Assembly: GCA_016197155.1 (NCBI GenBank)
Contig: JACPWF010000025.1
Coordinates: forward strand, 28,276 to 92,275
Direction of reading: 5' to 3'
DNA from: Candidatus Omnitrophota bacterium
GTDB taxonomy: Bacteria > Omnitrophota > Gorgyraeia > 2-02-FULL-51-18
Length of the DNA stretch: 64,000 bases
The position numbers were made by a program, and so were the translations under genes. Every line of letters starts with the position of its first letter. Position 1 is the stretch's first letter. Positions 2,563-63,500 of the stretch are shown here, one piece after another. Below the pieces are notes generated by a model that searched no databases, was not told the DNA's origin, and saw only the letters and a program-made list of their open reading frames with translations.

Positions 2563-3259
2563 TCTTTTTTACTCCCACGCCAACCGCCATTAAATAATGG
2601 GCCATCGGATAAAAACCGGTGTGCACAATTTCATCGTTCATCGAGAAAACGAACACATTGTGAAAACACCGTGTCAAAAGTTTTCTCAAACCCTCCGAAT
2701 TCTTCAGATTCACGTGCGCGATCCGACTGCGGGGGCTGGCATACTTGCGAGCTTCCTTGTTGGGAGTGCCCAGAATCAAAATTCCTTGAGGTGCGAGCGA
2801 TTTACAAATATTTCTCACAAAATGCCTTTCCAAAACCCTCGGAATATGCTCGATCACATCCAATGAATACGCCGCATCGAATTTTCGACCTGTCACCCGG
2901 TTTTTTGTAATATCAAGCACCGAAAAACGGCATTTTTTGATCCCCTCATGCCACAAACGATCCTGCGCATCGTGGATCACAAACGGCTCAAGATCTACAC
3001 CATGGACAAAACCAACTGTTTGGAGCATTACCGGGATGCCTATGGCATCGCCGCAGCCCACTTCCAGCACGCGCACGCAACCCGCGAGCATCTTGGCACA
3101 AAACTTGTATCGTGCCAGCAGAAACCCCAGATGCTTTGGATCGCTTCGCCAGATGTTACTGCTCCACGGCCCCAGGTGTGCGGCACCTCTTTGCCGATAG
3201 TCGTCAAGCTGACTATCCTGGGCCAGATGCTGTTTCTGTTTCGCGTCGATCCGGGTCAT
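2552..3259 (-). CDS. class I SAM-dependent methyltransferase
   Basis: Motif I VLEVGCGDAIG; ~235 aa. Start assigned to internal Met (MTRIDAK) giving an ATGA start/stop overlap with panB at 3256-3259. Confidence 0.7.
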   Translation of the reverse strand: MTRIDAKQKQHLAQDSQLDDYRQRGAAHLGPWSSNIWRSDPKHLGFLLARYKFCAKMLAGCVRVLEVGCGDAIGIPVMLQTVGFVHGVDLEPFVIHDAQDRLWHEGIKKCRFSVLDITKNRVTGRKFDAAYSLDVIEHIPRVLERHFVRNICKSLAPQGILILGTPNKEARKYASPRSRIAHVNLKNSEGLRKLLTRCFHNVFVFSMNDEIVHTGFYPMAHYLMAVGVGVKKNGR

Positions 3260-4146
3260 TTTGGAGATTCGACGACGTATTTCCACCGGGGATCCGCCAA
3301 CATTCTCTCGAGTTCTTCGTCTTTCAATTCATAAAAATGCTCGCTTGAGGGAAATTTTCCTGTACGCACTTCGGATGCGTACTGTCTCAGCGACTGCTCA
3401 ATCACCCTGCCCACCTCGCAATAGCGCTTGACAAATTTGGACTTGAATTCAAAAAACATGCCTATCAAATCATGCAGAATCACCAGCTGACCGTCCACCT
3501 GATCGCCGGCGCCGATGCCGTAAACCGGGATTTTTAAATTTTTGGCGACATAGCCGGCCGATTCCCGCGGCATCGCCTCGAGCAATAAAAGCCGGCAACC
3601 GGCCTCTTGCAGAGCGATCGCCTGCTCCAATATCCTGTCGGTTTCTTTCTTTGTCTTTCCCTGCACACGGTAGCCGCTTAGCATGGCCCGCGTTTGAGGT
3701 GTCAGACCCAGATGGCTCATCACGACAATGCCGGCGTCGGCAATCGCTTTGACCCGGTCCACCATGGCGCCTTCGACCTTCACCGCATCGCAGCCCCCTT
3801 CCTGCAAAAACCGGCCCGCATTGCGCACGGCAATTTCGTTGGAGACCTGGTAGGACATGAAAGGCATGTCCCCGATCTGCATGGCCTTTTTGTTGGCCCG
3901 CCAAACACCTCGGCAATGGCTGATCATGTCCTCCATCGTGACGGCAATGGTCGTCTTGTAGCCAAGTGTCGTCATCCCTAGCGAATCTCCCACCAGCACG
4001 ATATCCACTCCGGCGCGGTCGGCCAACAACGCCTCCGGATAAGTGTACGCGGTAACGGCCACCACTTTTTCTTTTTCTTCTTTTTTTCTCTCAAGCGTCA
4101 CCAGCGTTGTGCGCGGCCTGTCCATCGGACCGGAATTTTCTAGCAT
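3256..4146 (-). CDS. panB: 3-methyl-2-oxobutanoate hydroxymethyltransferase (ketopantoate hydroxymethyltransferase)
   Basis: Strong similarity to PanB along its length: VTAYTYPEALLADRAGVDIVLVGDSLGMT..., HLGLTPQ, IGAGDQVDGQLVILHD. Confidence 0.8.
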   Translation of the reverse strand: MLENSGPMDRPRTTLVTLERKKEEKEKVVAVTAYTYPEALLADRAGVDIVLVGDSLGMTTLGYKTTIAVTMEDMISHCRGVWRANKKAMQIGDMPFMSYQVSNEIAVRNAGRFLQEGGCDAVKVEGAMVDRVKAIADAGIVVMSHLGLTPQTRAMLSGYRVQGKTKKETDRILEQAIALQEAGCRLLLLEAMPRESAGYVAKNLKIPVYGIGAGDQVDGQLVILHDLIGMFFEFKSKFVKRYCEVGRVIEQSLRQYASEVRTGKFPSSEHFYELKDEELERMLADPRWKYVVESPK

Positions 4147-5954
4147 AGCGTTTTACTCCCTTTTAGTCTTTCTTTCTCCACTAATGTTGAGAACGCCTTT
4201 TCAATCTCCTTTAATTCCTCGGATCCGAGCTTGGGGTCCAAATCTTCGAGCGAGCCTCCAAATTTCAGCATCGGGACAATCCTTTGGTTTGGGAATATTT
4301 CCACGTTGCACAAGACGGGCCCCTGGCTTTGAAGGGCCTCACGGATCTGCCGACTCATTTTGGCGTGATCGCAGATATTCACGGTTTTCATGCCAAACGC
4401 CTGGCCGCTTTTCAAAAAATCGGGAAAGGCCAGACCGGTCGGTTCATCCACTCCTTCATACCGGGAATCCAGCCAGGTGTCCAGCGTCTGTTTTTGAATG
4501 CCGTGCCCATGGTTATTGAAAATGAAAACCGTGACAGGCAGGTGATGCCGGACCAGTGTCGCCAGTTCAGCCAGGCACATCATGATCCCGCCGTCACCGA
4601 TGATGCACAGGACGCGGCGATGACCCGCCGCCAGCGCCGCACCGATGCTCGCCGGCAGGGAATACCCCATCGGCGAATGGTTCCAGGCCGAAAAAAGACG
4701 CTGGCCGGGCTTGACGCGCCAGGCCTGCATCGTCCAGCTTAAATTTCCCCCGGCGTCGGTGATCACGATATCGTTTTCGCCGGATTGCTTCGAAAGCTCC
4801 TCCACAAACAGGTAGGCGTCCACACTGTCCGTTTTTTCAGACAGCCCGTCTGGTGCAATTGGAAACCGGCGCCGTAAGAGGCGGATAAAATCCAGCCAAT
4901 GATCGCGTTCCGAAGCCCGCACGGAAAAATCAACGGAAGAACAGTTTTGAAAAAATTCCCGGATACCGCTTTGAATCGGCAGATCCACCTTCACGCCGCA
5001 AGGGGCAAACTTTGCAAATTCTTCGGCGTCGATATCCACCACCGCCTTGCGTGCGTCCGGGGCGAAAAGCTCCTGCCTGCCGCCCGTGATCATTTGAGAG
5101 AGCCGGGTTCCCACCGCCAAAATCAGATCCGCCCTCTGGACCGTGAAGTTGCCCGCGCGCGGTCCGCACACGCCCAGCCCTCCCGCGCTGATCGGGTGGT
5201 CATACGGTATCAAATCGGCCCCACCCCATGTCAATAGGACCGGGATCCCTAATCGGTTGGCAAAATCAATCGCTTCTCTCTCAGCCTTTGCCAAACGGAT
5301 ACCCGCGCCATAAATGAGGACCGGACGCCGGCTTTGCTTCACCAAGGCGCATAATTTCTCCGGCCAATCGAATAACGGGGTTAGGCCCTGGGTCGAAGGC
5401 CCCGGCGCCTCAAACCGCTCCAATTTTTCAGGATCCACATCCACCCGCTGAACATCATCCGGAATGTCCAAAAGCACGGGGCCCGGACGGCCCGAACGCG
5501 CCAGCCAAAGCGCTTTTTCAAGCTCGTAGCGGATCAACGCCGGATCCTCAACCAAAACGGCATATTTGGTGACCGGTTTGAAAATGGAAACCACGTCCGT
5601 CTCCTGGAAACCTTTTTGCCTCAAACACCCGTTTTTCTTCAGACGGAAACGGGCCACCTGGCCGGTGAGAAAAAGTGAAGGGATAGAATCAAAATAAGCG
5701 CAACAGACGCCCGTGAGAAGGTTGGTGGCGCCCGGGCCGCTGGTCGTGATGGCCACGCCGAGGTTACCCGTGATTCGTGAATAGGCGTCCGCGGCCATCG
5801 CGGCGGCCTGTTCGTGTTGCGGACAAATGTACCGGAGGGAAGGGTGCCTGGCCACCGAATCCACCAAATGAATCGCGGCCCCGCCGGAAATCAAGAACAC
5901 GTGCCTGACTCCCTGACGCGCGATGAAATCGGCAACGTAGTCGGACAGTTTCAT
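4140..5954 (-). CDS. thiamine-diphosphate-dependent enzyme, acetolactate synthase large-subunit family (specific reaction unknown)
   Basis: ALS/IlvB-like N-terminal Pyr domain (GVRHVFLISGGAAIHLVD, TSGPGATNLLTG), SGRPGPVLLDIP, C-terminal TPP motif IIGDGG...N. Start placed at MKLSDYVADF (ATGA overlap with SDR stop at 5951-5954). Confidence 0.8.
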   Translation of the reverse strand: MKLSDYVADFIARQGVRHVFLISGGAAIHLVDSVARHPSLRYICPQHEQAAAMAADAYSRITGNLGVAITTSGPGATNLLTGVCCAYFDSIPSLFLTGQVARFRLKKNGCLRQKGFQETDVVSIFKPVTKYAVLVEDPALIRYELEKALWLARSGRPGPVLLDIPDDVQRVDVDPEKLERFEAPGPSTQGLTPLFDWPEKLCALVKQSRRPVLIYGAGIRLAKAEREAIDFANRLGIPVLLTWGGADLIPYDHPISAGGLGVCGPRAGNFTVQRADLILAVGTRLSQMITGGRQELFAPDARKAVVDIDAEEFAKFAPCGVKVDLPIQSGIREFFQNCSSVDFSVRASERDHWLDFIRLLRRRFPIAPDGLSEKTDSVDAYLFVEELSKQSGENDIVITDAGGNLSWTMQAWRVKPGQRLFSAWNHSPMGYSLPASIGAALAAGHRRVLCIIGDGGIMMCLAELATLVRHHLPVTVFIFNNHGHGIQKQTLDTWLDSRYEGVDEPTGLAFPDFLKSGQAFGMKTVNICDHAKMSRQIREALQSQGPVLCNVEIFPNQRIVPMLKFGGSLEDLDPKLGSEELKEIEKAFSTLVEKERLKGSKTLC

Positions 5955-13462: not shown

Positions 13463-13516
13463 CCAATCGTCTCCTTTAATAGTAAGAGTCCCACAAGCAT
13501 GAATCTTTAGTTATGG

Positions 13517-13545
13517 ATTATATAAAATAACTCATTTTTAATCAA
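13517..13545 (-). promoter_or_regulatory. sigma70-type promoter for the OM beta-barrel gene
   Basis: On the minus strand: TTGATT, 17-nt spacer, TATAAT. AAGGAG SD 6 nt before the ATG at 13462. AT-rich UP-like region upstream. Confidence 0.5.
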
Positions 13546-13554
13546 GATTAATTA

Positions 13555-14421
13555 TTAAAAAAAATTTTTAGCCGTTTCCACCAGTTCTTCGGCGGAAAAA
13601 ACGTTTTCGGAGTCCGCGGCGGCCGCGGCGGCGGTCAATTCCAACCGATAAAACTCCGCCACGTTGTCGTTGTAAAATTTGAGGTTGTCGCGGAAGCGCT
13701 TGGCGATGACTTCCAGATTTGCCCAGACGGCGTCGATCGCGCACACCGCGAACGCGTCGCCGCCGTAGCGGCAAAGAACGTCGGATCGCCGAAAGGAAGT
13801 CTTTAAAATCTCGGCGGCGCGGGTCAAGGCCCGGCTACCCTCCTTGTAACCGAGGCCTTCGTTCATTTTGTTGAGATTGGCGACCTGAAAATGAAAGAAG
13901 AGATGCCCCTTTTTCGTGCGCGGTAAAAGTTTGAGCTGCTGCTCGGCCACGATCGAGAACCCTCTGCGGTTGTACAGGCCCGTGAGATCGTCGAGCAAAA
14001 GATTTTCGCACAGTTCCCGGTGAGCCCTGTTTCTCGCCACGGCGCGGCGCACCAGGCGCGCGATCCGCCCGGCGTCGCGCTCGGATTTGAAGAGACCGTC
14101 GTCGGCGCCGAAGCGAACGGCCTTTTCAATGAGAGGTTCCTCGGTCTCGCCGGCGAGAACGAGGATGGGGATGCCGCGCGCGCGGGAACGAAGCGAAAAA
14201 AAGGCGTCCATCCCCTTGGCCTCGGGCAGAGCCAAATCCACAAGTACCGCGTCCGCGCCGCCGCGCTTCAAAAATTCGAGGCCGTCCTTCAGCGAGCCGG
14301 TGTGCTCGAGACGACAGTCAGGGGCGTGTTTTTTAAAAATATCGTTTAGGAAAAGCGGGTAGTCGGGATCGGCCGTGATGAGAAAAACGCGGACCGATGG
14401 GTTTTCGTGAGCGGCGGACAT
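13555..14421 (-). CDS. response regulator: receiver domain + degenerate GGDEF domain
   Basis: Receiver (VLVDLALPE phospho-Asp context, ...LFKS). GGDEF domain starts DLTGLYNRRGF, but the signature reads RYGGDAF and the upstream metal-binding DxD is absent. Confidence 0.75.
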   Translation of the reverse strand: MSAAHENPSVRVFLITADPDYPLFLNDIFKKHAPDCRLEHTGSLKDGLEFLKRGGADAVLVDLALPEAKGMDAFFSLRSRARGIPILVLAGETEEPLIEKAVRFGADDGLFKSERDAGRIARLVRRAVARNRAHRELCENLLLDDLTGLYNRRGFSIVAEQQLKLLPRTKKGHLFFHFQVANLNKMNEGLGYKEGSRALTRAAEILKTSFRRSDVLCRYGGDAFAVCAIDAVWANLEVIAKRFRDNLKFYNDNVAEFYRLELTAAAAAADSENVFSAEELVETAKNFF

Positions 14422-14473
14422 CTGGATTTAATCTAACGGGTCACGGCGATAAAATCAATATTAAAAACAAAAA

Positions 14474-14562
14474 CGGAGAGGTAGGGATTCGAACCCTAGG
14501 ACCCGTTTTACCAGGTCAGTCACTTAGCAGGCGACTGCAATCGGCCTCTCTGCCACCTCTCC
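14474..14562 (-). tRNA. tRNA-Ser (anticodon GCU)
   Basis: Reverse complement GGAGAGGUGGCAGAG...: 7-bp acceptor stem, anticodon loop CUGCUAA, long variable arm, T-arm UAGGGUUCGAAUCCCUA, 89 nt, no encoded CCA. Confidence 0.8.
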
Positions 14563-14696
14563 TAAAATTAAAACTATCCATCTTTACTCAGCCTCTCCCT
14601 GCCTGCCGGCAGGCAGGTGCCACCTCTCCTAAAATTAAAACTATCCATCTTTACTCAGCCTCTCCCTGCCTGCCGGCAGGCAGGTGCCACCTCTCC
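14563..14696. repeat. perfect tandem duplication of a 67-bp unit containing a 20-bp GC palindrome and a copy of the tRNA-Ser 5' end
   Basis: Unit taaaattaaaactatccatctttactcagcctctccctgcctgccggcaggcaggtgccacctctcc occurs twice back-to-back (14563-14629, 14630-14696). Each copy ends with tgccacctctcc, the complement of tRNA nt 1-12, followed by taaaatt. Confidence 0.9.
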
Positions 14697-14740
14697 TAAA
14701 ATTTTAAAAAATGTTTATAGATTTTAAATTTATCCGATCC

Positions 14741-14829
14741 TGGCGGAGAGGGTAGGATTCGAACCTACGGTCGCCAGTGGCGACAGCGGTTTTCAAGACC
14801 GCCGCATTAGACCACTCTGCCACCTCTCC
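14741..14829 (-). tRNA. tRNA-Ser (anticodon UGA), CCA encoded
   Basis: Reverse complement GGAGAGGUGGCAGAGUGGUCUAAUGCGGCGGUCUUGAAAACCGC...: anticodon loop CUUGAAA, long variable arm, T-arm UAGGUUCGAAUCCUA, terminal CCA present. Confidence 0.8.
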
Positions 14830-15059
14830 CTGATCCACTTCCGTCCTTGACCTGATTTTAAAAAGTTTTCTCTCTGTCTGGCACGGGTGTAATCAGACAA
14901 TTCTTCCTCATAGAACAAAACCCAGGGACGATAAGGCTTGGTGGATTTCACCTTGCCTGAGTTATGAGATTGAAGTCTGGTGAAAGACATTCCTTCTCGG
15001 CTTGAGCCAATATAGAAACCTTTTTTTGATTCACTGTAAAGGATATAAACACAAGACAC
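14793..15059 (-). CDS. GIY-YIG nuclease-family small protein (YhbQ/UPF0213-like)
   Basis: VYILYSESKKGFYIGSS...RLQSHNSGK...STKPYRPWVLFYEEE...RARQRENFLKSGQGRKWI matches the GIY-YIG / YhbQ pattern. The last ~13 codons overlap the 5' half of tRNA-Ser(UGA). Confidence 0.7.
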   Translation of the reverse strand: MSCVYILYSESKKGFYIGSSREGMSFTRLQSHNSGKVKSTKPYRPWVLFYEEELSDYTRARQRENFLKSGQGRKWIRERWQSGLMRRS

Positions 15060-15095
15060 TCTTATCCCTTTCCCTTAAAGCGGTTTTTCCGCCAA

Positions 15096-15195
15096 AGGCG
15101 CCCGCCTGCCGGTCGGGCAGGGACTCGCCTCCGGCGGGCAAGACCGCCGCATTAGACCACTCCCTGCCTGCCGGCAGGCAGGTGCCACCTCTCCT
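15096..15195. repeat. tRNA-fragment / GC-palindrome repeat block
   Basis: 15139-15162 copies nt 14793-14816 of tRNA-Ser(UGA) (caagaccgccgcattagaccactc). A third copy of cctgcctgccggcaggcagg lies at 15163-15182 and of tgccacctctcc at 15184-15195, overlapping the serS stop codon. A related palindrome cctgccggtcgggcagg lies at ~15104-15122. Confidence 0.7.
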
Positions 15196-16465
15196 ATTTC
15201 TTAATCACCGCCATTCCGCCCAGGTACGGCCGCAGGACTTCCGGCACGCGCACCGAGCCGTCGGCGTTTTGATTGTTTTCCAAAATCGCGATGACGACGC
15301 GCGGCAGAGCCAGTCCCGAGCCGTTCAGCGTGTGGACGAATTCCGATTTATTCGAATTTTTTCTTTTGAAGCGGATATTCGCGCGCCGCGCCTGAAACGC
15401 CTCAAAGTTGGAAACCGACGACACCTCGAGCCATCGCCCCAGGCCCGCGGCCCAGGCCTCGATGTCGTAGCACTTGGCCGCCGCGAAGCCCATGTCGCCG
15501 CTCGAAAGCTGGATCACGCGATAGGGAATTTCCAAAAGATCTAAAATTTTCTCCGCGTCTTTCAGAAGCGACTCGTGCGCCTTGTAGGAATCCTCCGGCT
15601 TCGTGAATTTGACGAGCTCCACTTTGTCAAACTGGTGCACGCGCACAAGGCCCTTGGTGTCTTTTCCGTAGGAACCCGCTTCGCGGCGGAAACACGGCGT
15701 GTAGGCCGTGTATTTCAAAGGCAGGTCCTCTTCTTTCAAAATCTCGTCGCGGTGAAGGTTCGTCACCGGCACCTCGGCCGTGGGGATGAGAAAAAGGTCG
15801 TCGTCCTTCAGGCGGTAGAGGTCTTCTTCGAATTTCGGAAGCTGTCCCGTGCCCGTCATGCTCGCGCGGTTCACGAGAGACGGCGGCCAGATTTCCGTGT
15901 AGCCGTGCGCGGCGTGCCGGTCGAGCATGAAATTGACCAGCGCGCGCAGAAGGCGCGACCCCGTCCCCCAAAAAAGCGGAAAAGCGCTTCCCGTAATCTT
16001 GGCCGCGCGCGCCATGTCGAGGATCCCGAGGGTCTGGCCGATTTCCGTGTGTTCCCGGGGTTTGAAACTGAATTTGGGAATGTCCCCGCGATGCGAAACT
16101 TCCGTGTTGGCACGGCTGTCGGCGCCGATCTTCACGGATTCGTGAGGCAGATTGGGGATGAGAAGGAGTTCTTCTCTAAATTTTATTTCAATCTCCTCCG
16201 CCTTCGCTTCGAGCGCGCCGATTTTTTGCGAGGCCTCTTTCATGGAGGCGATGAGGGCCTTGGGGTCTTTTTTTTCTTTTAGGACCCGCGAGATCTCGTC
16301 GTTTTTTCTGTTTTTTTGACCGCGGAGTCCGTCAAGCTCGGTTTGGACCGCACGGCGTTTGGCGTCGAGCGCCAGGAACGCGTCGAATGGAAATTTCGGA
16401 GCCCTGGTTTTCAGGAGCTCCTTCACTTTTTCCTGATTGTCACGAATAAACGATACATCCAGCAT
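15194..16465 (-). CDS. serS: seryl-tRNA synthetase
   Basis: Class II aaRS motifs and SerS N-terminal coiled coil. Start at [11 protein letters not shown]; the ORF-track upstream extension overlaps tRNA-Lys and is discounted. Confidence 0.9.
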
Positions 16466-16537
16466 GGGGAGATTATAGCGAATACGCCGATGGTGAGCAA
16501 GGCGGATGGCCAAAAGGCCATCCGCCGCGTCGAACCA

Positions 16538-16610
16538 TGAGGCGCCCGGGACTTGAACCCGGCACACCTTCCTTAAAAGGGAAGTGCTCTACCAGATGAG
16601 CTAGCGCCTC
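16538..16610 (-). tRNA. tRNA-Lys (anticodon UUU)
   Basis: Reverse complement GAGGCGCUAGCUCAUCUGGUAGAGCACUUCCCUUUUAAGGAAGGUGUGCCGGGUUCAAGUCCCGGGCGCCUCA; anticodon loop CUUUUAA; 73 nt. Confidence 0.8.
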
Positions 16611-16621
16611 GTGAACTTGTT

Positions 16622-17188
16622 TTAAACTTGGGTGAGATCTTTTTCTTTGGCGGCCTCGGCCTGATCGATCATTTGGATATAGCGATCGGTCAGCTTCTGA
16701 ATATCCGTCTGGCCCTTAAAACTTTCGTCTTCGGTGGCGGTCTTTTCCTTTTCGAGCTGTTTCGTCTTTTCATTGGCCTCGCGGCGGATCGAGCGGAGCG
16801 CCACGCGGCCCTCTTCGGCCAGTTTGTGGACGATCTTGACCAGATCCTCCCGGCGTTCGCGCGTGAGCGGCGGAATGACGAGCCTCACCATCTTGCCGTC
16901 AATCACCGGCGCGATGCCCAGGTCCGACTCGCCGATCGCCTTTTCGATCGCCTTCAAAACCGACGGGTCCCACGGGTGAAGGAGCAACATGCGCGGCTCA
17001 GGGACCGTGATATTGGCCACCTGCCGCAGGGGCGTCGGCGTGCCGTAATAGTCGACGCGGATATTTTCCACCATCCCGGCCGAGGCGCGGCCCGAGCGCA
17101 CCGCCGCGAAATGCTGGTAGACGATGTCCACGGACTTTTTCATTTTTTCTTCGGATTCGCGGATGAGGTTCTGCGCGCCGCCCGCCAT
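16622..17188 (-). CDS. frr: ribosome recycling factor
   Basis: Characteristic RRF sequence (VRSGRASAGMVENIRVDYYGTPTPL...); 188 aa. Confidence 0.9.
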   Translation of the reverse strand: MAGGAQNLIRESEEKMKKSVDIVYQHFAAVRSGRASAGMVENIRVDYYGTPTPLRQVANITVPEPRMLLLHPWDPSVLKAIEKAIGESDLGIAPVIDGKMVRLVIPPLTRERREDLVKIVHKLAEEGRVALRSIRREANEKTKQLEKEKTATEDESFKGQTDIQKLTDRYIQMIDQAEAAKEKDLTQV

Positions 17189-22151: not shown

Positions 22152-22264
22152 GGGGACTGTCCCTTTTTGCCCAAAAAGGGACAGTCCCCTCCTTTGTGAT
22201 GTCAGACAGCCCAACAAGCCTCCCCGGTCGCCGCGGCGACCACCCCTCCTTAAACAAGGAGGGG
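22152..22264. repeat. cluster of three perfect hairpins in a divergent intergenic region
   Basis: The hairpins are ggggactgtcccttttt-gccc-aaaaagggacagtcccc (17-bp stem, 22152-22189), ggtcgccgcggcgacc (22226-22241) and cccctcctt-aaaca-aggagggg (22243-22264). The arm motifs recur at 54837-54874. Confidence 0.6.
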
Positions 22265-54832: not shown

Positions 54833-54836
54833 TTTC

Positions 54837-54874
54837 CTCCCCTTACCAAGGGGAGGTGGTCGCCAAAGGCGACC
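54837..54874. repeat. two adjacent hairpins sharing arm motifs with the 22152-22264 element
   Basis: cctcccctt-acc-aaggggagg followed by ggtcgcc-aaag-gcgacc. On the minus-strand mRNA the first hairpin sequesters a GGGGAGG SD-like sequence just upstream of the purF region. Confidence 0.5.
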
Positions 54875-54881
54875 GGAGGGG

Positions 54882-55124
54882 TCAATTATTTTTTAATTTT
54901 TCAATCCAATGACTCACGTGCCTGGCCATCCCCTCGCGGCCGACGGGTTCCTTTAAAATGACGTCTAATTTTTTCTCCCACACGGACAATTCTTCCGCCA
55001 GATCCGGCACGGGCGCCAATTTCCGCGCCGCCTTCACCGCCGCTTCGATTTTCCCGCGCTCCGCCGAACCCCTGACCAGGTCCGCGATCGCCTCCAAAGC
55101 CCGAATGGTTTTTTCGTCAGCCAC
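54882..55124 (-). CDS. hypothetical small protein (80 aa) embedded in pur operon
   Basis: [60 protein letters not shown]...; helical, no recognised motif; 8-nt overlap with the purL start. Confidence 0.4.
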
Positions 55125-57396
55125 GCATCCTCCTTCCGATGGCGTTCCGCCAGGTGTGGGACAACACCCTGACCGGTATCGGGGTCAGACCCCTGTGGAT
55201 AACTTGGATTGCCAAATCCTCTCCCCCCGTCTTCCCGATCACTTCATACGGAGTGGCGGATGATTGTATCACCTCTTCGGCCTTTTTTAAATTTTTAGGG
55301 CTCACGGAGATCACGACGCGCGATTGGGATTCGCCGAATAAAAGGGCCTCGGTCGACACATCCGTAGGGGCGACGCGACGCCCGCCTGCCGGACGGGCAG
55401 GCGTCGCCCCTACATTAATGGCCGCCCCCATTTCGTAACCTTTGTTTGAAATACAGGATTCCGCCAGCGCCACGGCGAGCCCCCCCTCCGCGCAGTCGTG
55501 CGCGGAGGCCAATAAATTTTCTTTCGCCAGACGGATCATGAGATCATTCAGCGCCTTCGCCTCTTTCAAATCCAGCCGCGGGCAAACGCCCGCCTTCACT
55601 CCAAAAATCGTTTTTAAAAATTCCGAGCCGCCGAGTTCCTCGCGCGTTTGGCCCAGCAAAATCACGACGTCCCCTTCATTTTTGAAATGCGACGTCACGG
55701 GCTCGCGGCCCTCGATGAGCCCCACCATCCCGATTGTCGGCGTGGGATCGATCGCCCCTTTGGGATTTTGATTGTACAAAGAAACGTTTCCGCCCGAGAC
55801 GGGCGTCTCAAAGGCCAGGCAGGCGTCCCGAATCCCCTCGATGCATTTTTTCAGGGTCCAGAAAATCTCGGGATTCATCGGATTCCCGAAATTGAGGCAA
55901 TTGGTAATGGAGAGCGGCACAGCCCCCGCGCACGCGACGTTCCGCGCGGCCTCGGCCACCGCGATCTTGGCGCCTTCATAGGGATCCAGATAACAATACG
56001 TCGAGTTGCCGTCCGTCGAAATCGCAATCGACTTATTCGTGCCTTTGATGCGAATGACGGACGCGTCCGATCCGGGCAGGACCACGGTGTTCGTGCGCAC
56101 CATGTGATCGTACTGCCCGTAGACCCATTCTTTCGAGGCGATCGACGGCGCGTCCAACAGTTTCAACAACACCGCGTTCAAATCGCCGGCGCTCCCGAGA
56201 GATTTGGGATCAAAATTTCCCGCGCTTTTCAAATACGCGGGTTCTTTTTCCTCCCGAATGTAAACCGGCGCGTCGTCGGCGAGTTTTTTGGCGGGGATTT
56301 CGGAAACCGTGACCCCGTTTTCTTTCACGCGCATGAGGCCGTCATCCGTCACAAGGCCGATGGCTTCGGCGTGCAGGTCCCATTTCTCAAAAATCCGTTT
56401 TGCCTCGGCCTCGCGGCCTTTTTTCAAAATGACGAGCATCCGCTCCTGCGATTCGGAGAGCATGATTTCGTAGGGAACCATCCCCGTCTCGCGCTGGGGG
56501 ACCTTCGCGACGTCAATCTCGACCCCTGTATTTCCGCGCGAGGCGGTTTCACAGGTGGAACACGTGAGCCCCGCCGCCCCCATGTCCTGGATCCCGACCA
56601 CACAGCCGGATTTCAAAAGTTCCAAAACCGCTTCGAGCAAAAGTTTTTCAAGGAACGGGTCCCCCACCTGAACGGCGGGCCTGTCTTTTTCGGAGGCTTC
56701 GCTCAAATCTTTTGAGGCAAAGGCCGCGCCGCCCATCCCGTCGCGGCCGGTCGCCGCGCCCAGATAAAAAACGGGATTGCCCGTTCCCTCGGCCTTGGCC
56801 TTCACAATTTCTTCACGGCGCGCCAGTCCCAAAGCAAACGCGTTCACGAGAGGATTGCCCTCATAAGATTCATCAAAATAAATTTCGCCGCCGATCGTCG
56901 GCACGCCGATGCAATTTCCGTAGTGCGAGATGCCGGCCACGACCCCGGACAAAAGACGTTTCGTGTTTCCATTGTCATCCAATTTCCCGAACCTGAGCGA
57001 ATTCATCGACGCGATCGGCCGCGCGCCCATCGTGAAAATGTCTCGCAGGATCCCGCCGACGCCGGTGGCCGCGCCCTGAAAGGGCTCGATCGCCGAGGGG
57101 TGATTGTGGGACTCCATTTTAAAAACAACGACGAGCCCGTCGCCGATGTCGACGACCCCCGCGTTTTCCTCGCCGGCTTTCACGAGCATGCGCGGGCCGT
57201 CCTTCGGCAAAAGTTTCAAAACATTTTTGGAATTTTTGTAGGAGCAGTGCTCGCTCCACATGACGCTGAAAATTCCCAGCTCCGTGAGGTTCGGCTCGCG
57301 GCCGAGGATTTTTTTAATGGAGCCGTATTCGGCCGGCGTGATGCCGTGTTTTTGGATAATTTCCGGCGTTAATTTAATTTCTTCCGCTGTTTTCAT
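55117..57396 (-). CDS. purL: phosphoribosylformylglycinamidine synthase subunit PurL
   Basis: 759 aa, PurL (small-form FGAM synthase II) AIRS-like domains; [14 protein letters not shown]. Confidence 0.9.
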
Positions 57397-60528: not shown

Positions 60529-63500
60529 TTATGCCGCCTGGCGGACGGCCTGGCGGGAGGTTTGGGTGGTCTTGAGGCTGAGGCTAGTAAGCGGCATGGG
60601 CCTCATGATAAAGACGTAAACGGTCCCGCCGTCCGCCGTTGTCATGGGAAGAACGGAGACGTAATCTTTCAGCGAAGAAGGAATATTTTGAATGGAGGAA
60701 TCCTGTCTCATCCCCAAAATGGCGAGTAGCATCGCGGAGCTGTAGCTCTCTCCGGACTTGGCATCGGGGACGCGAATGTAGCGCACGCCGTCCTTGTAGC
60801 CCACGACCCCTTCGAAACGCTCGGGAAAACTGACGGCCAAATGCGCCACCGCGCGACTCAAAGATTTTTCCAAAATAGAGGTCAGGCCCTGGGAGCGAAT
60901 ATCGTTTTCATTGACCAAAACGGCGCTAAATTCGATACCGGGCGCCAGGATCCGAAGGCTGTCGATGGTTTGTTTGGCGGATGCGAGACTCGATTCGCTC
61001 GTCACATAAAATTTCACTTCCAATTGGCCCGACACGCCGGCGGTTTTGGCAAACTCATCGAGCGTTTGAACCGTCGCGGACAAATCGGGAGAGGCCAAAA
61101 GTCTTTCGTCGAACGCCATCACACCCGTCTGCCCTTCGATACTTCCTGCGAATTCTTTCAGGGACCGGATCACCTCATTCCGGAACCCGTTTCTGGCATT
61201 CAAAAGATGAATGGCTTCGAAATCAGCCTCTGAACGAGAAACAGCCGACGCTGATAATCGCGAAACACTTTCGCCGATCGGGAAACGGGCGATGGGTCTC
61301 ACGACCGCGGTAGCGGGATTAAATTGTCCGATCTGGACCTCGTCTGCGTGGGCGTCGGGAATGAAAGACAAGGCCGCCACTTTTGTCGCTAAAAGCAGTG
61401 GGATAATGACTCGACGTGCTCCACGGAAATTCGGCGCCAGACGAGCCGCAGTCTGGCGAAGCTCGTCCCGTTCCGAGGCCGTAAACGGTTCGCTGGAAAT
61501 GCCTAGCCTGTCATTCTGCGAAGCCGAGCCGTAAGGACTCGGCGAAGCAGAAAGCCGCGCACCTCTGGCGGAGTCGGTGAATTCCGGTGCCGCAAGAGAA
61601 GCTCTCAGCCGCGGGCCTTCTAGGCTCGCTTCGAGCGCCAGGCGAGCGCCGGCCGTGGTTTCATTTTTCCTTAGAAATTCCCGGGCTTCTCGGATAGCAT
61701 CAATATCGAAAGGCTCCCGGGTTAATGTATTGATAAAACCTTGGGCATGGTCATGCAAAGGTCTATTTGTTTCAACAGTGCTTCTCCCTAGCGTCAATGA
61801 ATCAATGTAGCTTCGTAGCCGCCTCAAAAGCCCGTCTTTTTCCTCAATGTCATTAGCCGCATCCAGCGTAAATTGAAATGATAAATCCCCGCCGACGTGA
61901 GGCTGGGACACCCGGATACCTTCGTTTCCAATCATTGTCTCCACTTGCGACAGCGGCAGAAAAACTGTCCGTTCGGGCTGACCTAAAGCGCTAAAACGAA
62001 CCGGCACTTTCAAAACGCCAGGGTTGGCCTCAACAAATTCGTCAAAGGCCTTGGAGACCTGCGCGGCATTCAAAAACCGGACTTCCGCGAGGCGCGCGAC
62101 CTGGTTGAGTGCGCCCACTTTCCTTTGAATAATGTCCGTGAGCCTTGCATCCTCTTCCGGAGTCCCGCCGACAACCACCCAATCCGGATAAACGGGCCGG
62201 TGAGGATCGATACCACGAGCCCCCTCAAAACCAGGCTGGCCATAAAGGGGGATTAAAAACGAGCGGGCGGCCATTTCAAAATCACGGGCGCCTTTGGCAT
62301 CAAGCGCCAAACGCAGATCGCTTCCATCCTGAACGGTGGGACGAAGCGCCTGATAAATCTCACTCGCATTTAGTCGGCTTGGATCACTTTCTGTAATCAT
62401 CAAAAAATGAAGCCCGCGTCCGCTTTGGCCGCGAGACAGAAGGACACCCGAGAGACCCGAACCTTTCTTTTCTACGACCACAGTCCGGACCTTCTCAATT
62501 TCCTCCGGTGAAATCCGCCCAGTTGCCGCCGCCGGCCCCGCCACCGAACTGTCGGCGCCTGCCTGACCGGCAGGCAGGGACAGGCGCGCCGCGCGGGGTG
62601 GATGAATGACAATGTTGACCGATGAAACTTCACATTTGGGATTATAATAAATCTCAAAGTCACTGCCAACGGGCGATAAACCAGCCAGTTTTTTAGACAA
62701 ATCCTGAATATCTTTAACATTGTCTCCCAGGATAAAAGTTTTTGTTGTCCTAACAATTTCAAGTTTGAACCATCTCAAACGAGCACGAGAATAAGTCACA
62801 TAAAAGGTTGTGAGCTTGTTCCTATTGATGTCTTCCAGATTAGTGATTGCTTGTTCCAGTTCTCCAATTTTCCAAAACTTGGGGCCATTTTCGGCAACCG
62901 CCAGCCGCGCGGCCTGATGATAGGCGGGTCGGAATTTATCGACAAAGCCTTTTGTGCCGACGATAACCGGTGTCTGCTGATGCATTTTTCGATACCGCAC
63001 ATCCAAAGTCTCTATCTCACCGGCTATCGAACTGCCACCAGCAGCCTCCAAGATAAATGCACCCGGAGCTTCCTCATAGGCAAAACGTATTCTCCCCGGC
63101 CTCTTGGGATCCGCTACATAAACGTAACCGCCATCTTTCATCCGCGGGTCTTTTCCCAATAAAACTCCCACCACATCCGCCCAGTAAGCGCCATTATAGG
63201 CATCAAAAGCTCCGCCCTCGTCCTGCATCTGTGTAATAACGGTATTAACACCCTCCGGCCGTATTTGAAGTCTTTTGCCGCCGGCGGCCATACGAATGTC
63301 CTCCCCCAAGCCCTTAATTTGGCGGATGATGCCTATTCGTCTGAAAGTTTTGGTATCCGGATTCATGCGGAAAACCATGACGCCGTCGGTTTTTTTGGAA
63401 GCGTAGAAAAGCAGGGTTTGAACGCCGTACAGGAAAATGAAAGAGGAATAGAGAGCATCTCTGCCTGTTCTTCCTTTCAAATCTCTCGCAAATATTTCAT

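What the first reader, a model, noticed from the sequence alone, without database searches (positions are those of the whole stretch)
14474..15195. tRNA-Ser locus with duplicated tRNA fragments, a 20-bp GC palindrome family and an embedded GIY-YIG ORF, next to serS
Seen: two tRNA-Ser genes (GCU, UGA) share their first 15 nt.

The complement of tRNA nt 1-12 (tgccacctctcc) recurs at 14618-14629, 14685-14696 and 15184-15195. A 24-nt internal piece of tRNA-Ser(UGA) is duplicated at 15139-15162. The palindrome cctgcctgccggcaggcagg occurs three times, always immediately 5' of a tRNA-fragment copy.

These repeats bracket a GIY-YIG-family ORF on both sides. Duplicated tRNA segments are the usual footprint of site-specific integration/excision at tRNA genes.

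A possible interpretation (speculative) is a small GIY-YIG-associated element or the scar of repeated integrations; the cognate synthetase gene serS ends inside the last repeat.
Basis: partly seen in the sequence, partly recalled or inferred. Interest (0 to 1): 0.7.

Follow-up and report, generated by a model that had tools for sequence, protein, structure and literature searches.

The report
Tiny nuclease element inside tRNA-Ser gene
The repeats mark a roughly 0.35-kb selfish element (an 88-residue GIY-YIG nuclease gene plus GC-rich hairpins) that sits in a serine tRNA gene and rebuilds the gene beside itself; I found the same design next to tRNA genes in bacteria from many phyla and found no description of it in the literature I could search.

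Summary
All features lie on the minus strand.

The order is serS, then a pseudo-copy of tRNA-Ser(UGA) nt 1-45, then a GIY-YIG ORF, then intact tRNA-Ser(UGA). The ORF's last 12 codons are tRNA sequence. Two 67-bp ORF-less pseudo-units follow, then tRNA-Ser(GCU). The pseudo-copy is interrupted by the 20-nt palindrome (nt 12/13) and by a degenerate 30-nt double hairpin (nt 36/37).

This is not a local oddity. Of 80 relatives from several phyla, as the records label them, 57 have a same-strand tRNA directly downstream (about 0.4 expected). Ten have one directly upstream. About 70 carry the double hairpin inside a partial tRNA copy.

Orthologous serS loci are empty in two lineages (L081, L085/L086). 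A third (L083/L084) holds an ORF-less remnant. The proteins cluster by tRNA type, not by host.

The palindrome is a separate, promiscuous family. It occurs in at least 120 metagenome contigs and inside two ORFs of this window, and it is strongly enriched next to this GIY-YIG family.

Best reading: a homing-type mini-element, closest to UPF0213/Slx1 nucleases. The cleavage step is inferred. Eight topical searches and one exact-string search found no prior description.

The parts
15194..16468 (-). serS (seryl-tRNA synthetase). Its stop codon TAG (15196-15194) shares its last G with nt 1 of the pseudo-tRNA.
   Evidence: Pfam PF00587 and PF02403. Synteny rpsB-tsf-pyrH-frr-tRNA-Lys-serS-tRNA-Ser in relatives.
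15183..15194 (-). Pseudo-tRNA-Ser(UGA), nt 1-12, at the ancestral tRNA position directly after serS.
   Evidence: L081 has the intact tRNA 8 nt after the serS stop.
15163..15182 (.). 20-nt perfect palindrome CCTGCCTGCCGGCAGGCAGG, inserted between pseudo-tRNA nt 12 and 13.
15139..15162 (-). Pseudo-tRNA-Ser(UGA), nt 13-36, 100% identical to the functional copy.
   Evidence: (family D4).
15088..15138 (-). Degenerate 30-nt double hairpin inserted in the anticodon loop between nt 36 and 37. It reads CCCGCC-GGA-GGCGAG, TC, a nested 21-nt palindrome (15101-15121), then CGCC-TTT-GGCGG-A.
   Evidence: Reading against the family consensus. Only a weak covariance-model hit, because the hairpin is split. 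L010 has a palindrome at the same internal position.
15079..15087 (-). Pseudo-tRNA-Ser(UGA), nt 37-45 (AAAACCGCT). This is the end of the duplicated segment.
15060..15078 (-). Short leader between the pseudo-tRNA and the GTG start of the ORF.
14793..15059 (-). 88-residue stand-alone GIY-YIG nuclease ORF. The last 12 codons are tRNA-Ser(UGA) nt 2-37 and the stop codon TGA is the anticodon.
   Evidence: PF01541 E=1.1e-10. Invariant Y5, Y16, R28, H32 and E64. AF2 model pLDDT 91, closest to UPF0213 and Slx1.
14741..14829 (-). Intact tRNA-Ser(UGA), the regenerated copy.
   Evidence: ARAGORN. Rfam 62.8 bits.
14630..14696 (-). ORF-less pseudo-unit 2: tRNA-Ser(GCU) nt 1-12 (14685-14696), palindrome (14665-14684), nt 13-22 with one mismatch (14655-14664), and a 25-nt spacer.
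   Evidence: An analogous six-unit, 101-nt array lies upstream of a tRNA-Ser in L038.
14563..14629 (-). ORF-less pseudo-unit 1, identical to unit 2.
14474..14562 (-). Intact tRNA-Ser(GCU).
   Evidence: ARAGORN. Rfam 48.7 bits.
55381..55401 (.). 21-nt palindrome relative inside purL, nested in a 12-bp inverted repeat. It encodes an in-frame extra segment.
62558..62578 (.). 21-nt palindrome relative inside a 1152-residue ORF.

Best explanation
The locus holds a miniature selfish element that lives in tRNA genes. Its parts are an 80-90-residue stand-alone GIY-YIG nuclease gene of the UPF0213/Slx1-like branch, a 30-nt GC-rich double hairpin, and a replacement copy of the tRNA sequence it displaces.

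In this window it interrupted the tRNA-Ser(UGA) gene that originally followed serS. The old 5' part (nt 1-45) remains as a pseudogene with the double hairpin in its anticodon loop (nt 36/37). The ORF follows. A complete tRNA begins at the ORF's 3' end, so the host keeps a working tRNA.

Proposed mechanism (inferred, not shown): the nuclease breaks an intact tRNA gene at or near the position later occupied by the hairpin. The broken end invades the hairpin-bearing pseudo-copy of an element-carrying allele. Synthesis then copies the hairpin, the ORF and the tRNA. The new strand re-anneals within the tRNA, giving the one-sided form seen here, or within a 3' pseudo-copy, giving the two-sided form seen in other lineages.

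Repeated breaks repaired from the upstream pseudo-copy would produce tandem arrays, with or without the ORF. The two 67-bp units in front of tRNA-Ser(GCU) are such ORF-less units. In them the 20-nt palindrome plays the role of the hairpin, at nt 12/13.

The palindrome itself is a separate, smaller GC-rich hairpin family. It travels with these elements but also lands elsewhere.
For: - Family-wide tRNA linkage. Relatives were sampled with a peptide pattern that is not tRNA-encoded (319 relatives, best 80 kept). Of the 80, 57 have a same-strand tRNA starting -50 to +100 nt from the match end, and 10 have one ending within 100 nt upstream. Background is 0.073 tRNA per kb, or about 0.4 expected. 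Most of the rest are intron-containing tRNAs, tandem copies or contig ends.
- A partial copy of the neighbouring tRNA, usually 100% identical, lies 45-60 nt from the ORF start. It always carries the double hairpin, at lineage-specific positions: the anticodon loop, D-loop, T-loop, D-stem or anticodon stem. Covariance-model hits lie next to the ORF in about 70 of 80 loci.
- The hairpin stems covary: 99.5% of cells are paired and 7 of 12 pairs show changes on both sides.
- Two-sided forms exist. In L046, L063, L065, L068, L058, L080 and L021 the 5' and 3' pseudo-halves each carry a hairpin and flank ORF plus tRNA.
- Presence/absence at the orthologous serS locus. L081 and L085/L086 are empty, and L083/L084 hold an ORF-less remnant.
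- In L083 and L021 the pseudo-fragment keeps one tRNA allele, while the functional tRNA is a different allele with compensatory stem changes. This suggests an imported tRNA.
- In a neighbour-joining ordering, the proteins cluster by tRNA identity across phyla rather than by host.
- Tandem amplification. 13 of 80 loci have 2-4 ORF copies. L038 has six ORF-less 101-nt units.
- The catalytic residues are invariant, the AF2 model is confident, and the closest matches are UPF0213 and Slx1.
Against: - No cleavage activity or cut site is known. The nuclease has no recognisable DNA-binding domain, so how it would find a tRNA gene is unexplained.
- The regenerated tRNA still contains the presumed target, so the usual homing logic (insertion destroys the site) does not obviously hold.
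- No conserved sequence motif exists at the insertion points.
- The hairpin's fixed orientation relative to the tRNA and ORF, together with its covariation, would also fit an RNA-level role.
- The hairpin sequences were picked by a hairpin scan, which inflates the percentage paired.
- All data come from metagenome assemblies. Repeat copy numbers may be wrong, and some host labels are doubtful.
- This window's double hairpin is degenerate: one stem mismatch, and it is split by a palindrome. This copy may therefore be decaying.
Confidence: 0.6

Rival explanations
1. The GC-rich hairpins (the double hairpin and the palindrome) are the real mobile agents. They would be REP- or MITE-like sequences moved by an unlinked enzyme or created by repair. 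The GIY-YIG gene would be a passenger, or a host structure-specific nuclease that processes them. The tRNA duplications would be by-products of hairpin insertion.
For: - The exact palindrome is in at least 120 metagenome contigs, mostly without a tRNA or ORF nearby.
- Relatives lie inside purL and another ORF of this window.
- ORF-less hairpin-plus-pseudo-tRNA units exist and amplify: the window's 67-bp units, the L038 array and L083.
- Flanking direct repeats of 8 nt or more are enriched around the palindrome, 17% against 5% in controls.
- The protein's nearest relatives are structure-specific nucleases.
Against: - The double hairpin is found almost only beside the ORF. In this window the only model hit below E=0.1 lies at this locus (15112-15139, E=0.015-0.087), and the best hit elsewhere is E=0.11. 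In the 80 loci the hits cluster at the ORF.
- The protein ordering tracks the tRNA type, which is not expected for a passenger or a general repair gene.
- 11 of 120 palindrome contigs carry this otherwise rare gene family, 6 of them within 250 nt. This argues for a functional link rather than independence.
Confidence: 0.17
2. The arrangement is not mobile. It would be a conserved operon in which the pseudo-tRNA plus double hairpin is an RNA leader (a processing, stability or attenuation signal), and the small GIY-YIG protein has a housekeeping role tied to the downstream tRNA.
For: - The adjacency is conserved across phyla.
- The hairpin stems covary, and the hairpin's orientation is fixed relative to the transcript.
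- The ORF and tRNA are necessarily co-transcribed, and the ORF often ends inside the tRNA.
Against: - Empty and remnant sites occur in close relatives.
- There is a mirror arrangement, with the ORF after the tRNA and the hairpin in a 3' fragment.
- There are tandem arrays of 2-4 ORFs.
- Different tRNA species and different hairpin positions are used in different lineages.
- The family is rare: 319 relatives among 185,579 species genomes.
- Divergent tRNA alleles lie next to ancestral-type pseudo-fragments.
Confidence: 0.1
3. The repeats are scars of repeated integrase-mediated integration and excision of larger islands or prophages at tRNA-Ser.
For: tRNA genes are classic integration sites, and duplicated tRNA segments are their usual footprint (general knowledge).
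Against: - No integrase or other recombinase ORF lies in or beside the locus.
- The duplicated part is the 5' portion, nt 1-45, not the 3' end.
- The insert is about 0.35 kb.
- The same compact layout recurs in more than 70 independent loci.
- No phage relatives were found, and only 1 hit among 2.9 million viral contigs.
Confidence: 0.03
4. The pattern is an assembly artefact of a metagenome-assembled genome, caused by mis-joined repeats around tRNA genes.
For: The source is a MAG contig. Many related contigs end right at the element, which shows that assemblers struggle here.
Against: - The same architecture appears in independent assemblies from many projects, including contigs of 0.49 and 2.17 Mb.
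- The ORFs are intact and conserved.
- The junctions are precise and reproducible.
Confidence: 0.02

Closest known systems
Free-standing GIY-YIG homing endonuclease genes of T4-like phages (Seg family, e.g. SegB in the T4 tRNA gene cluster; PMC2330249)
   Same: A GIY-YIG nuclease gene that is not inside an intron, sits among or next to tRNA genes, and is inherited preferentially by break-induced gene conversion together with flanking sequence.
   Different: - SegB, as a Seg-type enzyme, is a larger protein with a DNA-binding region beyond the GIY-YIG domain (own knowledge). The protein here is the 88-residue catalytic domain alone.
- The elements here are chromosomal in uncultivated bacteria, with no phage hits.
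- They carry a partial tRNA duplication and a conserved double hairpin, which I do not recall being described for Seg genes.
Mobile GIY-YIG ORF in the atp6 gene of Allomyces mitochondria, and other fungal mitochondrial free-standing endonuclease genes that duplicate the end of their host gene (Paquin et al. 1994; recalled from memory, not read here)
   Same: An endonuclease ORF inserted into an essential gene brings a replacement copy of the displaced gene segment. The original segment is left behind as a pseudogene.
   Different: - Those targets are mitochondrial protein genes and the duplicated part is the 3' coding end. Here the targets are bacterial tRNA genes and the duplicated part is usually the 5' part.
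- The nucleases belong to different GIY-YIG subfamilies.
- Homology between the two systems was not tested.
Double-hairpin elements and GC clusters of fungal mitochondria (cited in PMC4478555, PMC7218506 and PMC10085805 as listed; the papers themselves were not read)
   Same: Short GC-rich elements that fold into two adjacent hairpins, are dispersed in AT-rich genomes, and appear mobile. They co-exist with endonuclease genes.
   Different: - No sequence relationship was tested.
- The bacterial double hairpin here is tightly linked to one gene family and to tRNA pseudo-copies, has a fixed orientation, and is 30 nt long.
UPF0213 / YhbQ-type stand-alone GIY-YIG proteins (PDB 1YWL, 1ZG2) and the Slx1 structure-specific endonuclease
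   Same: These are the closest sequence and fold relatives. The profile gives E=3e-11 to 1YWL and E=6e-5 to Slx1. Foldseek gives probability 0.99-1.0.
   Different: - The UPF0213 proteins have no assigned function or genomic association that I know of.
- Slx1 has an extra zinc-finger domain and needs Slx4.
- Neither is known to be linked to tRNA genes.
Rickettsia palindromic elements and REP/REPIN sequences
   Same: The 20/21-nt palindrome family behaves similarly. It consists of short GC-rich palindromes dispersed in the genome, including apparently in-frame inside protein genes (purL).
   Different: - It is much shorter than Rickettsia palindromic elements.
- It is not restricted to extragenic space as REPs are.
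- The identical 20-mer is shared by many unrelated metagenome contigs.
- No RAYT-type transposase was looked for.

Membership tests
GIY-YIG nuclease superfamily (PF01541) | GIY and YIG motifs on a three-stranded sheet, followed by the conserved Arg, His/Tyr and Glu catalytic residues. | tested here: met
   Pfam E=1.1e-10, residues 1-70. Invariant Y5, Y16, G18, R28, H32 and E64 in 31 relatives. AF2 model pLDDT 91 with a beta-beta-alpha-beta-alpha-alpha layout.
UPF0213 / Slx1-like branch of GIY-YIG | Closer in sequence and fold to UPF0213 and Slx1 than to the I-TevI or UvrC branches. | tested here: met
   Profile against PDB: 1YWL 3.3e-11, 1ZG2 4.3e-8, Slx1 6.3e-5, I-TevI 0.023. Foldseek: 1ZG2 and 6SEH rank first.
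Slx1 proper | C-terminal RING/PHD-type zinc finger and an Slx4 partner. | tested here: not met
   The protein is 88 residues, with only the nuclease domain followed by tRNA-encoded residues.
Homing endonuclease gene (free-standing) | Presence/absence polymorphism at a conserved genomic site in related genomes. | tested here: met
   At the orthologous serS-tRNA-Ser locus, the window has the full element, L083/L084 a remnant, and L081 and L085/L086 are empty.
Homing endonuclease gene (free-standing) | The encoded enzyme makes a site-specific break in the element-free allele. | not testable with these tools
   This needs biochemistry. Only the conserved catalytic residues are shown.
Homing endonuclease gene (free-standing) | A separate DNA-binding module confers long-site specificity, as in I-TevI and the Seg proteins. 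| tested here: not met
   No domain beyond PF01541. The length is 80-90 residues across the family.
Homing endonuclease gene (free-standing) | The element-bearing allele is protected because insertion or sequence change destroys the target. | tested here: inconclusive
   The pseudo-copy is interrupted by the hairpin, but an intact tRNA remains. L083 and L021 carry a divergent functional allele, whereas many loci have identical copies.
Integrase-mediated genomic island or prophage at a tRNA gene | A tyrosine or serine recombinase gene, and a direct repeat of the tRNA 3' end at the far junction. | tested here: not met
   No recombinase ORF in the locus. The repeat is the 5' part, nt 1-45.
Group I intron in a tRNA gene | A catalytic intron core interrupting the anticodon loop of a single tRNA gene. 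| tested here: not met
   Rfam at E<=1 over 13500-17000 finds only tRNAs and noise. Group I introns do occur in the tRNAs next to five relatives, but outside the ORF.
REP/REPIN-RAYT system | Extragenic palindromes in high copy number, plus a RAYT (Y1 transposase) gene. | tested here: inconclusive
   Six family members lie in 64 kb, two of them inside ORFs. RAYT was not searched for, and the rest of the genome was not available.

The most novel reading that the evidence does not exclude
A previously unrecognised class of bacterial selfish DNA. A minimal Slx1-like GIY-YIG nuclease, about 85 residues long, would recognise DNA by structure: the hairpins that tRNA genes and GC-rich palindromes can extrude. 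It would spread by break-induced copying together with GC-rich hairpin 'plugs'. The double hairpin and the 20-nt palindrome would be its non-autonomous riders. They would explain both the tRNA pseudo-copies and the identical palindromes scattered through many uncultivated bacteria, including in-frame insertions in proteins such as PurL.
Probability: 0.3. Interest if true: 0.85.

Novelty: new variant of a known kind. Interest (0 to 1): 0.75.

Why it matters
- If confirmed, this would be one of the smallest autonomous mobile units I know of in bacteria: about 0.35 kb, one 88-residue protein and one 30-nt hairpin.
- It would show a way to colonise essential tRNA genes without killing the host, by regenerating the gene.
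- It would give a function to part of the long-unassigned UPF0213 family.
- It would explain why assemblies of Patescibacteria, Omnitrophota and Ignavibacteria break at tRNA genes.
- It would explain where tRNA pseudo-fragments and GC-rich palindromes in these AT-rich genomes come from.
- It could yield a very small structure- or site-directed nuclease.
- It also matters for annotation. The ORF tails are translated tRNA, and element-borne tRNA alleles can replace host alleles.

Tried and rejected
- **Look-up of the window's GIY-YIG protein by exact sequence:** not on record.
- **NCBIfam, PHROGs and PADLOC scans of the ORF:** no family matched, so it has no curated name and matched no phage-protein or defence-system family in those libraries.
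- **Phage GenBank records:** no match. IMG/VR gave 1 hit in 2.9 million contigs. A viral origin is rejected.
- **Literature:** eight topical searches covered GIY-YIG with tRNA, the anticodon loop, Patescibacteria/CPR, UPF0213/YhbQ/COG2827 and double-hairpin elements. One further search used the exact palindrome and hairpin strings. None described this arrangement. The nearest items are T4 SegB and the papers on group I introns in Patescibacteria tRNAs, and the latter contain no occurrence of 'GIY-YIG' in the search counts.
- **Double-hairpin covariance model on the window:** only weak hits (best E=0.015), because the local copy is split by a palindrome. Nothing else below E=0.1 in 64 kb.
- **Idea that the 25-nt spacer of the 67-bp units is a remnant of the ORF's 3' end ('..AGATGGATAG..' against '..AAATGGATTAAG..'):** the match is too short to claim. 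The ORF-less 101-nt units of L038 show that no ORF remnant is needed.
- **Idea that the 24-nt distance between the palindrome site (12/13) and the hairpin site (36/37) mirrors the I-TevI cleavage offset:** dropped, because hairpin positions vary widely among lineages.
- **Idea that the hairpin A loop (GGAGG/AGAGG) is the ribosome-binding site:** rejected, because it lies 35-45 nt from the start codon.
- **P0062 context:** could not be fetched because the file was too large.
Full report
**1. What is in the window**

All relevant features are on the minus strand. Reading 5' to 3':

- serS (15194-16468).
- A pseudo-copy of tRNA-Ser(UGA) whose first base is the last base of the serS stop codon.
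- A GIY-YIG ORF (14793-15059).
- Intact tRNA-Ser(UGA) (14741-14829).
- A 44-nt AT-rich spacer.
- Two identical 67-bp units (14563-14696).
- Intact tRNA-Ser(GCU) (14474-14562).

The 12-mer GGAGAGGTGGCA occurs 5 times against 0.24 expected. The palindrome occurs 3 times against 0 expected. The 24-nt duplicate is exact. The 67-bp tandem repeat is perfect. The last fragment is at 15183-15194, one base off the reported position.

Its layout is:

- nt 1-12;
- the 20-nt palindrome;
- nt 13-36;
- a 51-nt GC-rich block;
- AAAACCGCT, which is nt 37-45.

It is therefore tRNA-Ser(UGA) nt 1-45, 100% identical to the functional gene, with two insertions.

The ORF's last 12 codons (ERWQSGLMRRS) are tRNA nt 2-37, and its TGA stop is the anticodon.

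**2. The protein**

- The ORF is a GIY-YIG domain (PF01541, E=1.1e-10).
- It matched no family in NCBIfam, PHROGs or PADLOC.
- The source is a Candidatus Omnitrophica MAG.
- In 31 relatives, Y5, Y16, G18, R28, H32 and E64 are invariant.
- An AlphaFold model is confident (pLDDT 91).
- A profile search of the PDB puts it closest to the UPF0213 proteins EF2693 and BH0048 and to Slx1. I-TevI is more distant. Foldseek agrees.
- It is the bare catalytic domain, with no DNA-binding module.

**3. The same layout across a whole family**

The first clue came from the alignment. Many relatives end in E(R/E)WQSG(R/L)MRRS, which is translated tRNA-Ser. Some have N-terminal extensions that read through a tRNA fragment and a GC-rich block.

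I then sampled relatives from 185,579 species genomes with a pattern taken from the conserved core (FLKSG[QVY]GRK), not from the tRNA-encoded tail. There were 319 relatives, and the best 80 were kept. By record title they come from Patescibacteria, Omnitrophota, Planctomycetes, Thermodesulfobacteriota, Ignavibacteria/Chlorobi, Bacteroidota, Margulisbacteria and Verrucomicrobia. Some labels are doubtful.

tRNA linkage among the 80 loci:

- 57 have a same-strand tRNA starting within -50 to +100 nt of the match end.
- 10 have a same-strand tRNA ending within 100 nt upstream.
- The background density in the same loci is 0.073 tRNA per kb, which gives about 0.4 expected.
- Of the remainder, five have a group I intron just downstream. 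The flanking sequence reads as a tRNA-Asn 5' half, of the kind recently described in Patescibacteria (PMC13011429, abstract only).
- Others are tandem copies or contig ends where the tRNA start is visible.
- Only L049 shows no tRNA link.

The tRNA differs by clade: Ser (UGA, CGA, GGA, GCU), Gln, Lys, Asn, Leu, Thr, Tyr and Val.

**4. The partial tRNA copy and the double hairpin**

In most loci a copy of the neighbouring tRNA's 5' part, usually 100% identical, lies 45-60 nt upstream of the start codon. Reading these regions shows a constant design:

- tRNA nt 1 to X;
- a 30-nt double hairpin, consensus TCAGCC-AGA-GGCTGA TCCGCC-TCN-GGCGGA;
- tRNA nt X+1 to about X+10;
- 10-25 nt, then ATG.

X is specific to each lineage:

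| tRNA type | Position of the double hairpin |
|---|---|
| Ser UGA / CGA | 36/37 (anticodon loop) |
| Lys | 37/38 (anticodon loop) |
| Ser GGA, Val | D-loop |
| Asn | after nt 12 (D-stem) or after nt 28 (anticodon stem) |
| Gln, some Ser GGA | T-loop (TTC^GAA) |

There is no target duplication and no shared target motif.

A simple hairpin scan found 93 double hairpins in the 86 loci held at that point (L001-L086); among the 80 family loci, 70 lie next to the ORF. A covariance model finds them next to the ORF in about 70 of 80 loci. The stems covary: 99.5% of cells are paired, 7 of 12 pairs change on both sides, and slid controls collapse. The caveat is that the training sequences were chosen by a hairpin scan. 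The hairpin's orientation is always that of the tRNA and ORF.

In the window the local copy is degenerate. Hairpin A has one mismatch. A 21-nt palindrome relative (15101-15121) splits hairpin B, so the model scores it only weakly. Nothing else in the 64 kb scores below E=0.1. A Campbellbacteria locus (L010) has a palindrome at the same internal position.

**5. Variants that reveal the logic**

- **Mirror form.** In Ignavibacteria, Chlorobi and a few other loci, a complete tRNA abuts the start codon. The ORF follows. Then comes a 3' tRNA fragment with the hairpin in its T-loop.
- **Two-sided form.** In L046, L063, L065, L068, L058, L080, L050 and L021, a 5' pseudo-half and a 3' pseudo-half each carry a hairpin at the same tRNA position. 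Together they flank ORF plus a complete tRNA. The element therefore carries its own tRNA and splits the resident one.
- **Foreign tRNA alleles.** In L021 the 3' pseudo-half is a different allele from the functional tRNA. In L083 the 5' pseudo-fragment keeps the lineage-typical GGAGAGG/GCGGCGG. The functional tRNA beside it is GGAAGGG...CCCTTCC, with compensatory changes in three stems. These changes cannot be pseudogene decay and point to an imported tRNA.
- **Tandem arrays.** 13 of 80 loci have 2-4 ORF copies. L038 has four at a 326-nt period.
- **ORF-less units.** L038 has six 101-nt units, each of tRNA-Ser nt 1-20, hairpin, nt 21-29 and spacer, in front of a tRNA-Ser(CGA). This is the direct analogue of the window's two 67-bp units, in which the 20-nt palindrome takes the hairpin's place at nt 12/13.

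**6. Orthologous loci**

Relatives found through serS share the synteny rpsB-tsf-pyrH-frr-tRNA-Lys-serS.

| Locus | serS identity to window | State of the site |
|---|---|---|
| L081 | 82% | Empty. Intact tRNA-Ser(UGA) starts 8 nt after the serS stop. |
| L085/L086 | 75% | Empty. Clean spacer, then the tRNA. |
| L083/L084 | 75% | ORF-less remnant: pseudo-fragment, hairpins, AAAAACC, then the tRNA. |

The element is thus present, absent or decayed at one conserved site. The window's pseudo-copy sits at the ancestral tRNA position.

**7. Host or target**

A neighbour-joining ordering of the 81 core sequences groups them by tRNA identity. The Ser-UGA clade contains hosts labelled Omnitrophota, several Patescibacteria classes, Planctomycetes and Thermodesulfobacteriota. 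The Leu, Gln, Lys and Asn clades are also separate. The window's protein is 60-69% identical to proteins from hosts labelled as other phyla. This fits transfer between lineages with retention of target. It does not fit a host housekeeping gene.

**8. The palindrome**

It is not tRNA-specific.

- A loose pattern finds 11 overlapping regex matches in the window, at six distinct sites, against 0.64 expected. These include copies inside purL (55381-55401) and inside a 1152-residue ORF (62558-62578).
- The purL copy encodes a segment of about 15 residues that is absent from Thermus PurL.
Their median GC is 43%, and most contexts are unrelated.
- Yet 11 of those 120 loci (680 kb in all) carry this otherwise rare GIY-YIG family. 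Six of them have it within 250 nt of the palindrome, and about seven palindromes sit in tRNA-like flanks.
- Direct repeats of 8 nt or more flank it in 17% of cases against 5% in controls.

The palindrome is a dispersed family, but it is linked to the GIY-YIG elements.

**9. Mechanism**

Shown: the architecture, its recurrence, presence/absence at one site, tandem growth, foreign tRNA alleles, and an intact catalytic core.

Inferred: the nuclease breaks an intact tRNA gene at or near X. The broken end invades the hairpin-bearing pseudo-copy of an element-carrying allele. Synthesis copies hairpin, ORF and tRNA. The new strand then re-anneals. Re-annealing in the tRNA gives the one-sided form found in the window. 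Re-annealing in the 3' pseudo-half gives the two-sided form. Repair from an upstream pseudo-copy on the same chromosome adds a unit, with or without the ORF.

Weak points:

- The protein has no DNA-binding domain.
- There is no common target motif.
- The regenerated tRNA keeps the presumed target.
- The hairpin could instead act in RNA.

Because the nearest relatives are structure-specific nucleases, recognition of extruded hairpins or tRNA-gene cloverleaf DNA is attractive, but it is untested.

**10. Known or new**

Eight topical literature searches, plus a search for the exact strings, found nothing that describes this arrangement. The library lacks many subscription papers, so prior description cannot be excluded.

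The closest known systems are:

- free-standing GIY-YIG homing genes such as T4 SegB in a tRNA cluster (PMC2330249);
- the Allomyces atp6 mobile ORF with a duplicated gene end (from memory);
- mitochondrial double-hairpin elements.

I file it as a new variant of the free-standing homing-endonuclease kind. Membership in that kind rests on genomic behaviour. Cleavage is untested, and the DNA-binding-module criterion is not met.

Noticed in passing
window 55367-55413 (palindrome core 55381-55401), inside purL ORF 55117-57396(-): A 21-nt relative of the palindrome, nested in a 12-bp inverted repeat (GTAGGGGCGACG/CGTCGCCCCTAC), lies in frame inside purL. It encodes '[15 protein letters not shown]', a segment absent from Thermus PurL (3VIU). 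This looks like an in-frame palindrome insertion of the Rickettsia-palindromic-element type.
   Followed up: partly
window 62558-62578, inside ORF 60529-63987(-): Another 21-nt palindrome relative (CCTGCCTGACCGGCAGGCAGG) lies inside a 1152-residue ORF with FBPase-like domains, in a low-complexity Ala/Gly/Pro-rich stretch.
   Followed up: no
L087-L206 (metagenome contigs): The exact 20-nt palindrome is present in at least 120 metagenome contigs from many projects, mostly AT-rich and in unrelated contexts. Eleven of them also encode this GIY-YIG family. Flanking direct repeats are about 3-fold enriched.
   Followed up: partly
L081 5390-6214: The closest relative's locus lacks the GIY-YIG element. 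It has instead a 274-residue LAGLIDADG-type ORF (PF14528, E=7e-9) between tRNA-Ser(UGA) and tRNA-Ser(GCU). Its 3' end reads 48 nt into tRNA-Ser(GCU), at the place where the window has the 67-bp units. A second endonuclease family uses the same niche.
   Followed up: partly
L033, L036, L037, L070, L074 (just downstream of the GIY-YIG ORF): The tRNA next to the ORF in these Patescibacteria loci is interrupted by a group I intron (Rfam RF00028, 54-82 bits). ARAGORN therefore misses it, and two kinds of selfish element share one tRNA gene.
   Followed up: partly
L083 5283-5417 against 5418-5507; L021 about 3345-3440: The pseudo-tRNA fragments keep a different allele from the adjacent functional tRNA, which shows compensatory stem changes. 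This suggests that the functional tRNA was imported with the element.
   Followed up: partly
L038 380-990 (minus strand) and 1960-3240: One Ignavibacteriales contig carries six tandem ORF-less 101-nt units of pseudo-tRNA plus hairpin in front of tRNA-Ser(CGA). About 1 kb away it carries four tandem GIY-YIG units at a 326-nt period in front of tRNA-Ser(GGA).
   Followed up: partly
window 22225-22263 and 54836-54875: Two similar double hairpins (arms GGTCGCC..GGCGACC next to CCCTCC..GGAGGG) of a different family. They may be bidirectional terminators.
   Followed up: no
L063 3410-3445 and 3537-3572: The 3' pseudo-tRNA-Lys copies carry a further GC-rich insertion (CCTGCCCGTCCGTAGCTTTAGCGAAGGCGGG) in the T-arm. 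Its ends resemble the palindrome family.
   Followed up: no
L001-L080 (contig ends): Many contigs stop within a few hundred bases of the element (for example L006, L010, L015, L030, L034, L040). This suggests that these repeats routinely break metagenome assemblies at tRNA genes.
   Followed up: no
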